From positions 608,001 to 672,000 of the forward strand of contig CBDDDZ010000002.1 in the NCBI GenBank assembly GCA_965226795.1: 64,000 nucleotides of DNA, given 5' to 3'. This DNA is from Candidatus Latescibacterota bacterium (lineage in GTDB: Bacteria > Latescibacterota > UBA2968 > GCA-2709665). Of the stretch, positions 36,001 to 42,000 are shown piece after piece. The position numbers were made by a program. The stretch's first letter is position 1; the number at the start of each line of letters is the position of its first letter.

Positions 36001-39000
36001 TCGGGGCGCTTCAGGGAAAGCCGTTGCGACTCGCGGTACAGGCATTCTGCCCCGGCACGTCGCTGGAGATGACGCGCAAGGACGGCCAGTGGATCGGTAT
36101 CCTGCCCTATGCGGTGGGCGCGGAGTATGTGAGTCCGTGGTGTTACGAGACGTTGAGGGCTTCGCCGGCGCAGTATGAGGGGTATATGGAGACGCTCCGG
36201 CTGGACCCCTATCTCAAGGAGACGGAGCCGGAATTCGCCTGCAGCCTGTTCCACTCCCTCCAGAGCGAGGTCTGGCGGTATCACGACGTGGACTACGACG
36301 CAATGGCGATTCATCCGTTCGCGCAGATGCTGCGGGACGAGGGGCTGCCGTATGCGTTTGTGTGGGACAGCCGTCTGGATGAAACGGATCTGACTCGGAA
36401 CGCGCCGCTTGTGATGCCCCACGTCTGCTGTCTTTCCGCGTCACAGAGAAGCCGGCTCACGTCATATATCGAGGACGGGGGAGCGATCCTGGCGATCGCG
36501 GATCTGGGCCTTCTCGACGGGGAAGGACGGACCGTCGCGGAGGGGTTGTCGTCGCGCTGGGGGGTGGCGCTTTCCGGGGACAGGCTGGAGGGCCAGTATC
36601 GCCTCTCGTTCACGGACGCCTGCCCGTTGCGAGAAAATATCGAGGCTCCGGTGGTGGTGGAGAATCCGTATGAAGTCGGTCACGTCGAAGGGGAGGTCTG
36701 GGCGACGCTCGTGGACGCCCAGGGGCGCGACACGGGCGCGCCGGGCCTGGTCTCCAGCCGCGTGGGCGAGGGCAGGTTTGTCTACCTGGCGGGCGATCCC
36801 GTGCTCCATCATCGCGAGCCCGGATATGAACCCCTGGTCAAGCTTCCAAACCATACGCGTCGCCTGGTCGGGAATGTGATCAGATTTCTGGCGTGCCGGC
36901 CGGCCGGGATCGAGGTGGAGGATTTTCCGCCGGTAACGGCGTATCAGCGCCTTCGGGCCTGGGACCGGCGGGGGATCAATACGTTTCAGTTTTTCCCCCA
37001 GGTCGGACCTCGTTACGCCATCGCGATTGTCGCGTCTTACGTCGGAGCAGAGGCAACCGTATCGATTCGATTCCGGATACCCGAGGGGAAGCGGCCTTTG
37101 CGAATCTTCAACGGTCTGACGGACGAATCCTGCATGGCGGACGCCTCGGTCGATTCGGAATCCATCCGATATCGTCTACGGATCACCCACGTCGACGGCG
37201 TCGTCCCGGTGGTGGTGGAATGGGCGTGATGCGTTAACGTAGTGAAGGGACCGGATCAGGGATGAACCGTGAACGCAGTCTCCATGCGCCCGACGAGGAT
37301 GCGCGGGACGGCCTGACCCCGCGAGCCTTTCTGATCGGCCTCGCCCTTTGCGGATTTCTGGGACTGGTGCTGCCGTACAACCGAATGGTGATCCAGGGAC
37401 GGTGGCTGAACGCGTATTTCATCGACCGCGGCGCGCTCGTACTCCTGTTCTTTCTTGTCCTGTTCGCCAATCCACTGCTCGCCGCGCTGAGGAAACGATT
37501 CGCCCTGAACCGGGGCGAACTGCTGGCCATTTACGTGATGTTCCTGTTTTTGTTGCCCGTCTCGCAAATGGTCAAACATCTGATCTCCTACCAGACCGGC
37601 GTCACCTACTACGCGACTCCCGAGCGGCGCGACCTGGAGGCCGTGTTGCCCAATATCGTCCCCTGGACGGCCCCGCGGGACGCCGAGGTCGTGCGGGGTC
37701 TCTACGAGGGGCTGCCCGACGGGGTACCGCCGCCCTGGGAGGCGTGGTTCGTTCCTCTTGTCAGCTGGGGCGCGTTCCTGCTGGTGCTCCTGGGGGTGTT
37801 GATCTGTCTGGCAGTCATTGTGCGGAAACAGTGGGAGGACCACGAACGTTTCGCCTTTCCGATCATGCAGGTACCCCTGGAGATGAGCGAGACCGGAAAT
37901 GGCAGGTTGGGACGGCTGTTCAGGAGCCGGTTGATGTGGGCGGGGTTCGCGATTCCGTTCGTGATCGGGTCGATCAACGCGCTGCACCACTACTTCCACA
38001 CCGTCCCCCGGATCGGCCTGGTTCACGATATCTGGATCTTCAACGGTACGACGCCCTTACGCCTCAGGCTCCACTTCGCTATCCTGGGGTACTCCTATTT
38101 CGTGAATACGGACGTGAGCCTGAGCATCTGGGTGTTCAACGTCATTTCCAAGATTGTCCGTGGCATACTGGCAGTCCTGGGAGCGGAACGCTACAATGTA
38201 TCGGGCGTGGTGGGGCGGTTCAGTTCTCAGGGACACGCGTCCCTGGCCCTGATGGGCATGGGGTACATGGTGATCCTGGCAGCGTACAGCCTGTGGGTGG
38301 GGCGCGAACACCTGCGCCAGGTCGCGGCGAAAGTACTGGGCAGGCCATCGGGGGCGGACGATTCGAACGAGGTCATGTCCTACCGGACCGCGGTGATCGG
38401 AATTGGAGGCGGAACGCTGTATCTTGGGTGCTGGCTGTATCAGGCCGGGATGTCTCCACCGGTGATTCTAGTGTTGTTCGCCTCCTGTTTCGTGGTGTTC
38501 CTGGTGATGGCGCGAATCGTGAGCGAGACCGGATTTGTGACCGCATACTCGCCCATCAATCCCGCCGAGTTTGCCGTCTGTATGGTCGGGTCTTCTGCTT
38601 TCAGCCCGGCTGGCCTCGTGACGCTGGGGTTCGGCTATGCCTGGACGATGACGCGGACGAGCACGCTGATGCCCCGTGCGGCGGGCGCGCTCTGGCTTGC
38701 CCGCCGGATCCCCCGTAAGCGTGGCCTGGTCTGGGCAATGGGTCTGGCCCTGGCGGTGGGCCTGATCACCGCGAGCACGATGACGCTCAAACTCGGCTAC
38801 GCCCATGGTGGGCTCAACCTGGACCGGCATTTTCTGGACTATGCTCGCCTCCCGTTCGATGCCTTTGTGGGCCGCCGCATGCTGGAGCCGAGTCCGATCT
38901 TCACCCGAGGGTTTCTGTACCTGGGCATGGGGGGCGCCATTGCGGCGCTTATTGCGGCGATGCGAGCCCGGTTTGTGTGGTGGCCGCTGCATCCCATTGC

Positions 39001-42000
39001 GCTTCCCGTCAGCACGATTGCGTATACGGATTACTTCTTTATCAATGTTCTTCTGGCCTGGGGTGTAAAGAGCCTGGTGTTGAAGTTCGGAGGCGCGAGG
39101 CTCTACCGGTCGACCCGGCCTTTCTTTATGGGGATCATCCTCGGGGAGGCCGTTTGCACGGGGCTGTGGATTGCCGTGGACTACTTTACGGGGACGGTCT
39201 CGAATATGTTCTTTCCCTATGCGTAAGGCCGGGACCAATGACGATAAACATCCCCCTCCCCCTAACGTCCCCTATTTCCTTGCCCTTTTTCTTGCATCGC
39301 CCAAGAAAAAGGGCGAAAAAGAAGGGCGCCGCTCAGACGCCGCGGGGCTGATTTTCCGCGAATCGCTTCAAAGGAACTAAAGTGTGGCGTTGCCCTGCGG
39401 CCATTGCGGTCGATGCCGTACCACGTTGCTGAACGGATTAGCGCGGAAAATCCTCCACAACACCACCGGCCGTGCATGAGGTGGGGGAGACCTAACCTCT
39501 AAACTCTTCCCAGGGGGAGGGGGAGAGGTCCGAGGACGGCTGATCGCTCCTCGTTCGCCGAATACCAATGTAAATACACTCGAATTGCCTCTCGAGAGGA
39601 ATACCAGAGCAGAGCGCGCTATTCCGTTCAGCAGCCAACTGCGGTATCCAACTTCCCTTGTAGGGCAGAAGCTTCAGTGCGTCCACAGTCGAGATTCGCG
39701 CTGTGCATATAGCAGGCCCCGCGCCCAGCGGCGACTTTTGGTTCCTTTTGGTCGCTTCAAAAGGAACCCGCCGGAGGCAGGGAATTTAGGGAGATGTGGA
39801 TTTTTGGTTTTCGGCTTTTGTTTCAAGCTGACTGCCGCGAACAATAACCCCCATTGCCACCACCGGGCGCTTGCTCCAGCGACCGGATCACGAAACGGAG
39901 GGCAGAAATGAACGCGGACAGAACCTCGGAATCGGGTACGGTCCGAGAAAGCGGTATCGAACTGAATCAGACCTGGGATATGGGACGGCTGGTCGATCTG
40001 ACGTGCGATTACTTCAACGGGATGCCCGTGGATATGACGGGAACGCTGCCGTCGTTCCGGATGCGGGAACTGGACGAAGAAATGGAGGCCCTGTGCAGGG
40101 GCCGTGAGTACCGCAGTTACACCCAGGAAGTCCGGATGTGCGTTCAGGCCGGCAACTATCTGGAGACGGGGGCGCATCTCTATCCGGAATTGGAGTCGGT
40201 TGCCGATATCGGCCTGGAACGGCTGTTTGTTTCAGCGGTGGTGATGCAACTTCCCAGAGGGAAAGATGAAAAGGTAACCGCCGCCGACCTGGATCGCGCA
40301 CTGGCGAGTCTTGGAGAGACGATCCATCCGGGGGATGCGATCCTGGTCGCCACGGGTTACAATCGGCTTGGCAGCAACGACATTGGCTGCGACCTAACGC
40401 CTCATTTCAGCTACGACGCGATTGACTGGGCGGTGACTCGAAGGCCTTCGATTCTGGCGTCGGACATGGCCAGTTGGCACGACGGAGAGGAAGAACCGAG
40501 TTTCTGGCCCATGCTCATGAGGTCCGGCGTACTGGTGATCGGGTCGCTGTTGAACGTGGCGGATATTACCGCAACCCGCATCCAATTGATCGCCCTGCCG
40601 ATGAAGATCCGCGGGGCTTGCGCGTCTCCGTGCCGGCTGATCGCCGTCCTACCGTCTCGCGGCGCAGACACAGACTGAAAACGCCGCACCGCGGTGAAAG
40701 CCGCAACGGCAAACTGACGTCCAGAATTGAGGGTATTACAATGAAGATTGAACGAATTTCTACCCATCGGCTCCGGGAATGCGAAATCAGTATGGAGAAG
40801 TGGACGCATTTCACGAAATGGAAGGCCAGCGAGGACTGGATTGAGGACGAAGTCTTCGGCAAGAAGTGGATTTCTCCCACCTGCGTGTGCTACAATCCGA
40901 CCGACGGCCTGGTCTACGTGGGGCTGACCGCGCTCGACAGGGACATTTTTTACACATTCGACCCCGCGACGCATACGTGGGAATCGCTGAATTATCCCGG
41001 TGAACGGGACCGGTACGGCAGCAAGATCCACCAGGGCCTGGAGGTGGATGATGAGGGCCGCGTGTACGCGGGTGTCGCCACGCTGGGCGACGCGGATATC
41101 TGGCCCAAGGCCACTGGCGGCCCGATCTTTCGTTACGATCCCGGGACCAGGGAGTACGAGTTTCTGTGCATCCCGATCGAGCACGACTACGTTCAGGGAT
41201 TCGTGATGGACCGCCGGCGCGGCATTATCTACGGGGATACATTTCCCGGAAGAAAGATGTTCCGATACGATATCGGAAGCGGTGCCGCGCGGGAGTTGAC
41301 CATGCTGGGTGACGTTTCCACCGAGCATCTGGCGCTGGATGCGGACGGCGGCGCCTGGCATACGTACGAACTGATGCAGTGGGCGGGACGGTATCCGCTC
41401 CTGCGCTACGACCCGGACCGGGATGAGATCGACTTTACGAACGTGGACCTTCCCGACGTCGGGCCTGGAAAACCGGGTTCCAACCAGATGGATACCGCGC
41501 TGCTGACGGAAGATGGGACGCTGTACATTGGCACGACCGCCGGGGCGCTGGTGCGGTTGGACCACAGGGGTCCGGGGGTGAGGGTGACGTATCTGGGAAA
41601 ACCCTATGTCGCGCCGCGCATGAAGGGATTGATCGAGGGTCCCGACGGACTGATCTACGGAGTCAGCGGGGGCGACTACGATACGCACTTTTTCACGTAC
41701 GACCGCGGGACGGGTCTCTTCAACGACCTGGGGCCGATCCGGGATACGCAGGACGGGACGCGGTGCTGGCTGGCGCACCATATGTGTATGGTGGACGCCA
41801 GAACATTCATCGTGGCCGAATCGGATAACCATTCAAGGGCGAGTTTCCTGTTCAAAGTGGAGTTGGCTTAGCCGCTGAATAGAACGAAACGCCTACCAGT
41901 GCCTGGATCGATTTCAGCGCGTATTGACCCGGATAGAGGGAATCGGATGGCCCTGATTGCGATCGGTGGATTCCCGGGCGCCGGGAAGACGACGATATGC

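What a model noticed while it worked through the whole genome (the two positions that open the first line are those of the whole stretch)
37262..39226. DUF6785/DUF6784 proteins are OPT (Yellow-stripe-like) fold transporters, expanded to 23 paralogues in catabolic loci
g00535 (654 aa, Pfam DUF6785+DUF6784, 'unknown function') is predicted with high confidence to adopt the fold of the oligopeptide-transporter (OPT/YSL, TC 2.A.67) family, so this DUF family is a secondary membrane transporter. The genome carries 23 paralogues (561-691 aa), nearly all inside gene clusters for polysaccharide lyases (Hepar_II_III), GFO/IDH/MocA oxidoreductases, PhyH dioxygenases, sugar-isomerase-like and amidohydrolase genes; three sit beside giant FtsX-type permeases (g00112, g02511, g03487). 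They are the likely inner-membrane importers of the breakdown products handled by these loci.
Evidence so far: AlphaFold2 model from a 40-sequence alignment: mean pLDDT 88.6, pTM 0.90. Foldseek vs PDB: only two hits at E<=0.001, both barley Yellow stripe 1 (7wst/7wsr; E 1e-8, TM 0.65/0.70). Foldseek-independent VIA-align over 48,161 chains: 7wsr_A Z 24.2, 549 residues aligned at 3.8 A, next best Z 5.5. hmmscan vs Pfam at E<=10 shows no OPT or other transporter family, only DUF6785/DUF6784. The 23 genes and their neighbours are listed in call 66 (g00111, 113, 173, 174, 184, 253, 535, 849, 1178, 1184, 1470, 1522, 1524, 1528, 2465, 2512, 3009, 3010, 3029, 3486, 3673, 4104, 4229); the family is found in only 1.2% of bacterial species genomes (relatives.tsv, call 66). 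No paper in the library holds 'DUF678 [...]
(Added by a program. Inside this text positions count along the whole contig: contig position 608,001 is position 1 of the stretch shown here. "Call 12" and the like, gene names such as g00115 and contig names such as C1 are that model's own, and its searches are not shown. The text may have been shortened before it was handed on; [...] marks where a part breaks off. The agent that wrote the report below was given it as the finding of a first reader that could run no searches.)

Follow-up and report, generated by a model that had tools for sequence, protein, structure and literature searches.

The report
Expanded Yellow-Stripe-fold transporter family
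A membrane protein family of unknown function, present in dozens of copies per genome in an uncultured bacterial phylum, has the fold of plant Yellow-Stripe/oligopeptide transporters and probably imports breakdown products, possibly powered by a shared ATP-driven partner machine.

Summary
Fold and copy number are confirmed. The 654-aa gene (DUF6785+DUF6784) folds confidently (pLDDT 92.4), and its only clear structural match is barley Yellow Stripe 1 (Z 24.3, 548 residues; next 6.7). Profile-profile and Pfam bridges show remote homology to OPT. The genome has 23 copies, its largest polytopic family. The expansion is lineage-wide: 117 of 125 near-complete phylum genomes hold the family, with up to 53 matches.

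Corrections: the OPT proton-relay motif is absent (0 of 81), so "secondary transporter" is not shown. 16 of 23 copies, not nearly all, lie near the named catabolic families. This gene lies instead in a conserved C45-amidase / GH42-like / transporter / cyclase operon.

The family is also the partner of a giant M28-FtsX permease, to which it is sometimes fused. This gene is the genome's best match to the fused form, and no near-complete genome has one without the other. Best reading: substrate-specific elevator importers. Energy coupling is open: ion-driven alone (0.45) or ECF-like sharing of a few ATP-driven modules (0.3). This scan noted the OPT fold and FtsX module before, on other genomes. 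No paper found names the family.

The parts
37262..39226 (+). DUF6785+DUF6784 gene, 654 aa, OPT/Yellow-Stripe-fold membrane protein (the finding)
37316..38809 (+). Pfam DUF6785 part (res 19-516)
38918..39196 (+). [quoted passage not shown]
   Evidence: model range 15-648 aligns to YS1 46-668
37394..37432 (+). Loop between helices 20-44 and 56-76 (res 45-57); inferred counterpart of the YS1 TM1-H1 hairpin loop that lines the pocket; variable between paralogues
   Evidence: mapping inferred from helix order and motif landmarks
37823..37861 (+). R-K-Q-W-x3-E-R-x2-F-P motif (res 188-200), aligned to the OPT P-L-R-R...L-x-Y-P-E-G motif
38633..38689 (+). TM9-equivalent segment (res 458-476); lacks the D-x-x-Q-D proton-site motif of OPT/YS1
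38978..38995 (+). WWPLHP motif (res 573-578), family-specific (pattern in 20 of 23 paralogues, 0 of 10 OPTs)
35136..37229 (+). 697-aa GH42/GH164-fold glycoside hydrolase-like protein, no signal-like N-terminus; N-D-E at strand 4, invariant Gln302 at the end of strand 7; 32 nt upstream of the transporter
33935..35038 (+). C45-like Ntn amidase/acyltransferase (below the curated cut-off; invariant Cys104)
39908..40678 (+). Cyclase family (PF04199) gene, syntenic downstream partner
40741..41871 (+). 376-aa protein with no family hit, syntenic in 6 of 7 orthologous loci
24372..30906 (+). Upstream TonB-dependent receptor, 768-aa secreted-type protein and PorV-like cassette; near the operon in 6 of 7 loci (141 nt from the C45 gene in G013), but probably a separate unit here (terminator-like site 31025-31053)
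39260..39830 (.). Genome-wide repeated intergenic elements (up to about 60 blastn matches) between the transporter and the cyclase; the gap is much shorter in two orthologous loci

Best explanation
DUF6785+DUF6784 is one whole protein with the Yellow-Stripe/OPT elevator fold, remotely homologous to OPT (shown by model, fold search and profiles). It most likely began as the membrane partner of a giant M28-FtsX/ATPase module. It was then duplicated many times into catabolic operons, and each copy gained its own pocket (inferred from the tree, neighbours and pocket variation). Each stand-alone copy imports a small breakdown product for cytoplasmic enzymes encoded beside it, working on its own on an ion gradient but through residues other than YS1's aspartate relay; the semi-conserved Glu422 at the second hairpin is a candidate (inferred). 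For this gene the likely cargo is an N-acylated glycoside or small glycoconjugate. Its operon holds a GH42-fold hydrolase with a D-E pair and, by my sequence reading, Gln at the nucleophile position, a C45 amidase and a cyclase-family protein, none with a signal-like N-terminus (weak inference).
For: Fold: Z 24.3 over 548 residues against a next best of 6.7; Foldseek TM 0.64/0.69. Homology: hhalign to 10 true OPTs gives probability 76-79%, E about 2e-5, 420-446 columns, while 6 other membrane families score at most 0.35% over at most 71 columns. One DUF6785 protein scores 33.3 bits on PF03169 (cut-off 25.8). An archaeal Atlas cluster carries OPT on 11% of members. Specificity: pocket segments are less conserved than the whole among the 23 paralogues (0.20-0.33 vs 0.35) but more conserved among close orthologues (100% at 83% and 92% overall identity; 0.96-0.98 at 89-95%). 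Context: 16 of 23 near catabolic families against a 22.5% baseline; 41 of 46 adjacent genes are on the same strand; C45, GH, transporter and cyclase stay together in 7 of 7 loci. Independence: 19 of 23 copies have no giant beside them, nor do 73 of 75 metagenome loci within the DNA held. YS1 works as a proton symporter with no partner (PMC9691689).
Against: The D-x-x-Q-D proton-site motif is missing (0 of 81). Among 125 near-complete genomes, none has the family without the giant, and fusions exist. The enrichment test used families picked from these neighbourhoods, so it is biased upward. Six distant, mutually related loci have mainly FtsY, GNAT, WD40, DUF1559 and glycosyltransferase neighbours. 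Pocket-over-whole conservation does not hold in more distant relatives (0.68 vs 0.72 in the syntenic G013 copy; 0.83 vs 0.87 in L053). The pocket mapping rests on motif landmarks, not on a residue-level superposition. There are no transport data.
Confidence: 0.45

Rival explanations
1. Shared-motor importer, logically like group II ECF. The many scattered DUF6785 copies are exchangeable substrate-specific subunits. They dock onto a few constant modules: the giant M28-PA/MacB/FtsX protein, a LolD-like ATPase and perhaps a second OPT-like protein as heterodimer partner. ATP, not a proton relay, drives the elevator.
For: Complete operon ATPase, DUF6785, giant, second OPT-like protein at C5:741-752 kb. 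Single-chain fusions of 2094 and 2122 aa in two genomes, plus a 56-member 2120-aa cluster. The stand-alone window gene is this genome's best match to the fused part of both fusions (414 and 395 bits; copies outside its clade score at most 315). FtsX-linked copies are interspersed among, and partly basal to, stand-alone copies (quick tree). 117 genomes have both, 8 have neither, 0 are discordant. Median ratio is 6 copies per giant, up to 26. The proton motif is lost, while non-pocket motifs are the best conserved parts (0.51-0.67 vs 0.35). Precedent for sharing: PMC7755397.
Against: Joint presence is expected if just one copy is a true subunit, and the 8 genomes lacking both are one family, so at most one event. 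The conserved motifs may be structural. Most copies are far from any giant. Type VII ABC systems are not known to drive a separate carrier (recalled).
Confidence: 0.3
2. Not nutrient import. The proteins are ligand-sensing, exporting or envelope-modifying subunits that use the OPT pocket to recognise a molecule, as partners of a type VII mechanotransmitter do.
For: The proton motif is missing. The partner is of MacB/LolD type. Distant copies sit beside glycosyltransferase, Wzx/Wzy, Wzm/Wzt, prepilin-type and FtsY genes. Seven of 23 copies lack the named catabolic neighbours.
Against: Strong catabolic enrichment here and in 8 other metagenome loci: sulfatases, dehydrogenases, amidohydrolase, GH127, S15 peptidase. 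The characterised OPT-fold proteins in the papers I saw are importers.
Confidence: 0.15
3. Ordinary OPT-like cargo: the copies import peptides or metal-chelates, and the sugar-catabolic context only reflects how rich this genome is in such genes.
For: Known OPT substrates are peptides, glutathione and metal-chelates. Peptidase and amidase neighbours are common: M14, S15, M24, C45, gamma-glutamyltranspeptidase. The genome has 94 GFO and 60 PhyH genes.
Against: The enrichment holds against the genome baseline and against other membrane proteins. The window's five-member clade lies beside a four-member family of related GH-like genes.
Confidence: 0.1

Closest known systems
OPT family (TC 2.A.67, Pfam PF03169); solved member barley Yellow Stripe 1 (PDB 7wsr/7wst)
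   Same: Whole-length fold (548 residues, 3.8 A), similar size, and shared landmarks: T-x-R/K-A at TM1, Glu at the start of TM2, the R-R...L-x-F/Y-P motif and R-I-V-x3-G at TM8.
   Different: 10-13% identity; this protein misses PF03169 and TIGR00728; no D-x-x-Q-D motif; own motifs (QW-x3-ER, WWPLHP); variable rather than conserved pocket segments; up to dozens of copies per genome; linked and fused to an ABC-type module.
Group II energy-coupling factor (ECF) transporters
   Same: Possible logic only: many substrate-specific membrane subunits with elevator-type motion and few ATPase modules (PMC7755397).
   Different: Different parts: a 650-aa OPT-fold protein instead of a small S-component, and a MacB/FtsX-type giant with a LolD-like ATPase instead of EcfT/EcfAA'. 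Sharing is not shown.
Type VII ABC systems (MacB, LolCDE, FtsEX, ADOP duplicated permeases)
   Same: The partner giant has FtsX and MacB periplasmic-core hits, and the operon ATPase scores best on LolD/FtsE models.
   Different: The giant carries an M28/PA head and a conserved C-terminal domain and is paired with OPT-fold carriers; the window gene itself has no ABC part.
Polysaccharide-utilisation-locus inner-membrane permeases
   Same: Position beside hydrolases and near a TonB-dependent receptor.
   Different: Different fold from MFS/SSS/ABC permeases; the receptor cassette seems to be a separate unit here. Passages of PMC4454575 list only conventional transporters for this phylum.

Membership tests
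OPT family (TC 2.A.67 / PF03169) | Yellow-Stripe fold over the whole chain | tested here: met
   VIA Z 24.3, 548 aligned, model 15-648 on chain 46-668; Foldseek E 5e-8, TM 0.64/0.69
OPT family (TC 2.A.67 / PF03169) | Score above the PF03169 / TIGR00728 cut-off | tested here: not met
   No hit for this protein or at E<=0.001 for the other 22 copies; 0 matches in this genome. One relative passes PF03169 in hmmscan (33.3 vs 25.8)
OPT family (TC 2.A.67 / PF03169) | Detectable homology to canonical members | tested here: met
   hhalign probability 76-79%, E about 2e-5; 6 control families at most 0.35% (the control alignments held only 2-8 sequences)
OPT family (TC 2.A.67 / PF03169) | Proton-site motif D-x-x-Q-D in TM9 (YS1 D490/Q493/D494) | tested here: not met
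   10 of 10 canonical OPTs, 0 of 81 and 0 of 23 DUF6785; aligned positions are R472 and A476
OPT family (TC 2.A.67 / PF03169) | NPG and KIPPR motifs | tested here: inconclusive
   0 of 23 for both, but also 0 of 10 in canonical bacterial OPTs, so they do not discriminate
OPT family (TC 2.A.67 / PF03169) | Inverted internal repeat of core and scaffold | tested here: inconclusive
   N-half vs C-half hhalign probability 0.86%; implied by the fold match only
OPT family (TC 2.A.67 / PF03169) | Proton-coupled uptake of peptides or metal-chelates | not testable with these tools
   Needs a transport assay
Group II ECF transporter | Small S-component fold with an EcfT/EcfAA' module | tested here: not met
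   654-aa OPT fold; the linked ATPase scores best on LolD/FtsE models
Group II ECF transporter | Many specificity subunits physically sharing one motor | not testable with these tools
   Only copy ratio and co-occurrence were measured
Type VII ABC system (linked giant protein) | FtsX/MacB membrane domain with periplasmic core and a cognate ATPase | tested here: met
   FtsX, MacB_PCD and M28 hits; LolD-like ATPase in the C5:741-752 kb operon. Applies to the partner, not to the window gene
GH42 / clan GH-A (upstream neighbour) | TIM barrel with GH42-type extra domains | tested here: met
   Foldseek TM 0.65-0.71 to GH42 and GH164
GH42 / clan GH-A (upstream neighbour) | Acid/base Glu on strand 4 and nucleophile Glu on strand 7 | tested here: inconclusive
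   Glu158 aligns with the GH42 N-E; invariant Gln302 ends strand 7, but no residue-level superposition was available

The most novel reading that the evidence does not exclude
A new class of ABC importer. Dozens of exchangeable OPT-fold elevator carriers, each encoded beside its own catabolic genes, share a few type VII (MacB/FtsX) motors with peptidase-like heads. It would be an independent reinvention of the group II ECF principle from unrelated parts, forming the main nutrient-uptake system of a whole bacterial phylum.
Probability: 0.3. Interest if true: 0.9.

Novelty: new variant of a known kind. Interest (0 to 1): 0.66.

Why it matters
It gives a fold and a probable job to a large unannotated family: 3,676 clusters at 50% identity with E<=1e-30, fragments included. 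It is the biggest polytopic membrane family in this genome (23 of 140) and is invisible to current annotation (named only 'hypothetical' or 'DUF6785'). Metabolic reconstructions of these polymer-degrading bacteria therefore miss what may be a main uptake route. It extends the Yellow-Stripe fold, which has one solved member in the searches here, to a prokaryotic branch without the proton relay. If the copies share an ATP-driven FtsX-type motor, it is a new transport mechanism that can be tested by reconstitution.

Tried and rejected
Complex prediction of this protein with the C-terminal 295 residues of one giant (one of four giants, one part only) gave no verdict (score 0.14, mark 0.32); it is not used for or against binding. 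The second OPT-like protein was not tested as a partner.

Profile searches of PDB sequences with 23- and 81-sequence alignments found nothing at E<=10. Global hhalign misplaced the N-terminal region, so N-terminal landmarks were read from conservation tables. The internal-repeat test was negative.

The 998-aa ORF at C2:105930 is not a fusion; gene calling gives a 691-aa gene. A 1116-aa ORF in L020 showed only the DUF domains. Signal-peptide-like N-termini are no rarer among neighbours than in the genome (15 of 77 vs 859 of 4176; crude hydrophobicity rule), so 'neighbours are cytoplasmic' cannot be generalised.

RNA-library contigs from 4 runs of 3 studies cover the gene, but contigs cannot show transcription or level. 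Co-occurrence with the giant could not be tested outside this phylum, because the metagenome records were not held as genomes. The careful tree did not finish; a quick tree was used.

Literature: 0 papers for DUF6785; 0 for DUF6784, PF20581, PF20580 and two InterPro numbers that I recalled and that may be wrong; one listing, not read, for OPT + FtsX + M28 + permease; nothing relevant by title or abstract start. TCDB and InterPro text could not be checked, so a database note linking the families may exist. No supplements were read.

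
Full report
Observation. Window 37262-39226 (+) encodes 654 residues with Pfam DUF6785 at 19-516 and DUF6784 at 553-645 and no other family at E<=0.01; NCBIfam gives nothing. 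The window is contig C2:608001-672000 of a 5.41 Mb genome. Named records holding close relatives of a paralogue are mostly labelled Candidatus Latescibacterota. phmmer finds 23 paralogues at 22-67% identity. They form the largest cluster among 140 proteins with eight or more predicted membrane segments; the next has 14 members (crude hydrophobicity rule and my own gene caller). The 561-aa copy is frameshifted at its start.

Fold. An AlphaFold2 model from 81 sequences has pLDDT 92.4 and pTM 0.92. Foldseek returns only the two barley Yellow Stripe 1 chains at E<=0.001, TM 0.64/0.69. VIA-align over 48,161 chains gives 7wsr_A Z 24.3, 548 residues, 3.8 A, 10% identity; the next best is Z 6.7. The match spans model 15-648, so the two Pfam domains are one fold.

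Homology. I added sequence evidence. hhalign of the 81-sequence alignment against ten canonical OPTs from the same phylum gives probability 76-79%, E about 2e-5, over 420-446 columns; six other membrane families of this genome give at most 0.35%. The PF03169 model rings on DUF6785 genes of relatives, and one passes the cut-off in hmmscan (33.3 vs 25.8 bits). A mainly archaeal Atlas cluster has DUF6785 on 95% and OPT on 11% of members. Shared landmarks are T-x-R/K-A at the first helix, Glu86, the R-K-Q-W...E-R-x2-F-P stretch and R-I-V-x3-G.

What differs from OPT. The YS1 paper (PMC9691689; I read parts 1-3 of 7: abstract, introduction, results, discussion and the start of methods) describes a core and scaffold elevator with Asp446, Asp490 and Asp494 as proton sites. 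The motif D-x-x-Q-D-L-K-T-G is in 10 of 10 canonical OPTs and 0 of 81 DUF6785 sequences; the aligned positions here are Arg472 and Ala476. Glu422 is 70% conserved and could serve instead, so ion coupling is neither shown nor excluded. The segments that should line the pocket are the most conserved in the ten OPTs (0.78-0.89 vs 0.57) and the least conserved among the 23 paralogues (0.20-0.33 vs 0.35); motifs outside the pocket reach 0.51-0.67. The OPT set may be orthologues, so the contrast is not like for like. Among close orthologues the pocket is better kept than the whole (100% at 83% and 92%; 0.96-0.98 at 89-95%), but not in more distant ones (0.68 vs 0.72; 0.83 vs 0.87). This fits paralogue-specific cargo. 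The mapping is by helix order and motifs, not by superposition. NPG and KIPPR (passages of PMC3061005) are absent from both sets. I therefore call this an OPT-fold relative, not a member of PF03169.

Neighbourhoods. 16 of 23 copies have a GFO, PhyH, AP_endonuc_2, heparinase-like or amidohydrolase gene within three genes, against 22.5% of other genes and 8 of 53 other membrane proteins; 0 of 5,000 random draws reached it. The families were chosen from these neighbourhoods, and tandem copies are not independent, so the test is biased upward. 'Nearly all' overstates it, and the window gene is among the seven without. As an outside check I scanned 94 ORFs from 14 of 75 metagenome loci. Eight had sulfatases, dehydrogenases, amidohydrolase, GH127 or a peptidase nearby. 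Six distant, mutually related loci had mainly FtsY, GNAT, WD40, DUF1559 and glycosyltransferase genes, with a few catabolic enzymes.

This locus. The gene follows a C45-like amidase (33935-35038; 65 bits, cut-off 85; invariant Cys104) and a 697-aa protein of GH42/GH164 fold (TM 0.65-0.71). It precedes a cyclase-family gene and a 376-aa unknown. C45, GH, transporter and cyclase stay together in 7 of 7 loci picked by the GH orthologue, six from the genus and one from another family, where two genes are inserted. The hydrolase has N-D-E where GH42 has N-N-E and an invariant Gln at the end of strand 7. From my own knowledge this resembles substrate-assisted N-acetylhexosaminidases, which with the amide-cleaving neighbours suggests an N-acyl glycoside; this is a weak inference. 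The four closest paralogues lie in a 100-kb island with four GH and two C45 paralogues. The upstream TonB-receptor/PorV cassette is probably a separate unit: RNA-library contigs of four runs stop at 31003-31029 beside a terminator-like site (weak hint). Contigs of these runs also cover the transporter gene, which does not prove transcription.

The FtsX link. Four copies flank three genes for 1500-1600-aa proteins with M28/PA, MacB-core and FtsX hits. A fourth giant lies beside a second OPT-like family instead. One operon reads ATPase (LolD-like), DUF6785, giant, second OPT-like protein. Two genomes encode giant and DUF6785 as one 2094- or 2122-aa chain, and a 56-member cluster with 2120-aa members exists. 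Of the 23 copies, the stand-alone window gene is the best match to the fused part. In a quick tree the FtsX-linked copies are scattered among, and partly basal to, stand-alone ones. In 125 phylum genomes at least 90% complete, 117 have both genes, 8 have neither and none has one alone. The 8 are one family, so this is at most one joint loss. In a 61-genome sample the family has 1-53 matches and the giant 1-5, median ratio 6; the two discordant genomes are 57% and 67% complete. The expansion is thus lineage-wide (41 of 41 in the class). Against dependence: 73 of 75 metagenome loci, and 40 of 41 of at least 10 kb, show no giant in the DNA held, though that search was seeded with a copy that has no giant beside it.

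Mechanism. Shown: fold, remote homology, copy number, neighbour enrichment, loss of the proton motif, operon link, fusion and co-occurrence. Inferred: inward transport, distinct cargo per copy and origin from the module. Open: the energy source. I put 0.45 on autonomous ion-driven importers, 0.3 on exchangeable subunits sharing a few ATP-driven modules in the manner of group II ECF transporters (passages of PMC7755397), 0.15 on sensing, export or envelope roles and 0.1 on ordinary peptide or metal-chelate cargo.

Novelty. No paper in the library holds the DUF or Pfam names. Passages of PMC3061005, PMC4454575 and bioRxiv 10.64898/2026.08.27.747422 do not mention the family; other papers were seen as listings only, and no supplements were read. 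Database names are 'hypothetical' or 'DUF6785 family protein'. This scan has already noted the OPT fold and the FtsX module in 15 findings from at least 14 genomes. I had found the fold and the fusions before reading them; their remark that the ATPase lies elsewhere fed my sharing idea, and two word searches for the expansion or sharing reading and one sequence search returned nothing. Verdict: a real, large, unannotated branch of the OPT fold; new variant of a known kind; interest 0.66, rising to 0.9 if motor sharing is true.

Noticed in passing
window 32853-33774 (+): Broken TPP-dependent enzyme gene: the middle and C-terminal domains lie in different frames, and only remnants or nothing are found in orthologous loci.
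   Followed up: partly
window 31408-32041 (-): PIN/Phd toxin-antitoxin pair in the variable gap between the PorV-like gene and the C45 gene; whole in 1 and partial in 2 of 7 orthologous loci.
   Followed up: partly
window 39260-39830: Two intergenic repeat elements with up to about 60 and 40 genome matches and inverted arms; another repeated hairpin at 32147-32227.
   Followed up: partly
L011:464-2884 (-); L033:5223-7280 (-); G000 C5:2746728-2748782: A second family of OPT-like proteins with no Pfam hit in hmmscan and weak OPT scores; the three checked lie directly downstream of a giant FtsX gene; only 2 copies in this genome.
   Followed up: partly
L015:7600-9942 (G000 C5:2118.7-2120.9 kb): The DUF6785 paralogue is frameshifted near its start; pseudogene or assembly error.
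   Followed up: partly
G000 C4:418-517 kb (L078-L081, L007-L009): Large catabolic island holding the 4 closest paralogues of this transporter, 4 paralogues of the GH42-like gene and 2 of the C45 gene: a co-expanded gene set.
   Followed up: partly
window 35136-37229 (+): GH42-fold family with N-D-E and Gln at the probable nucleophile position; possibly an undescribed substrate-assisted hydrolase family (only 9 homologues). The mechanism label is from my own knowledge.
   Followed up: partly
L034:3959-8619: Divergent true OPT (65 bits) beside a DUF1177 gene in a class relative.
   Followed up: no
L164:2958-6122; L180:883-3896: Prepilin-type DUF1559 gene directly upstream of a DUF6785 gene in distant loci.
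   Followed up: no
L006:11715-13725 and 18165-19040; L005:3297-4241: Several homocysteine S-methyltransferase-like genes cluster around three paralogues, a hint at methylated cargo.
   Followed up: no
window 7275-9407 (+): 710-aa fusion of a Mur/FolC-type ligase with an ATP-grasp domain.
   Followed up: no
phylum family f10 (G046, G051, G055, G059, G063, G067, G072, G073): One family lacks DUF6785, the giant and canonical OPT alike in the genomes searched.
   Followed up: no
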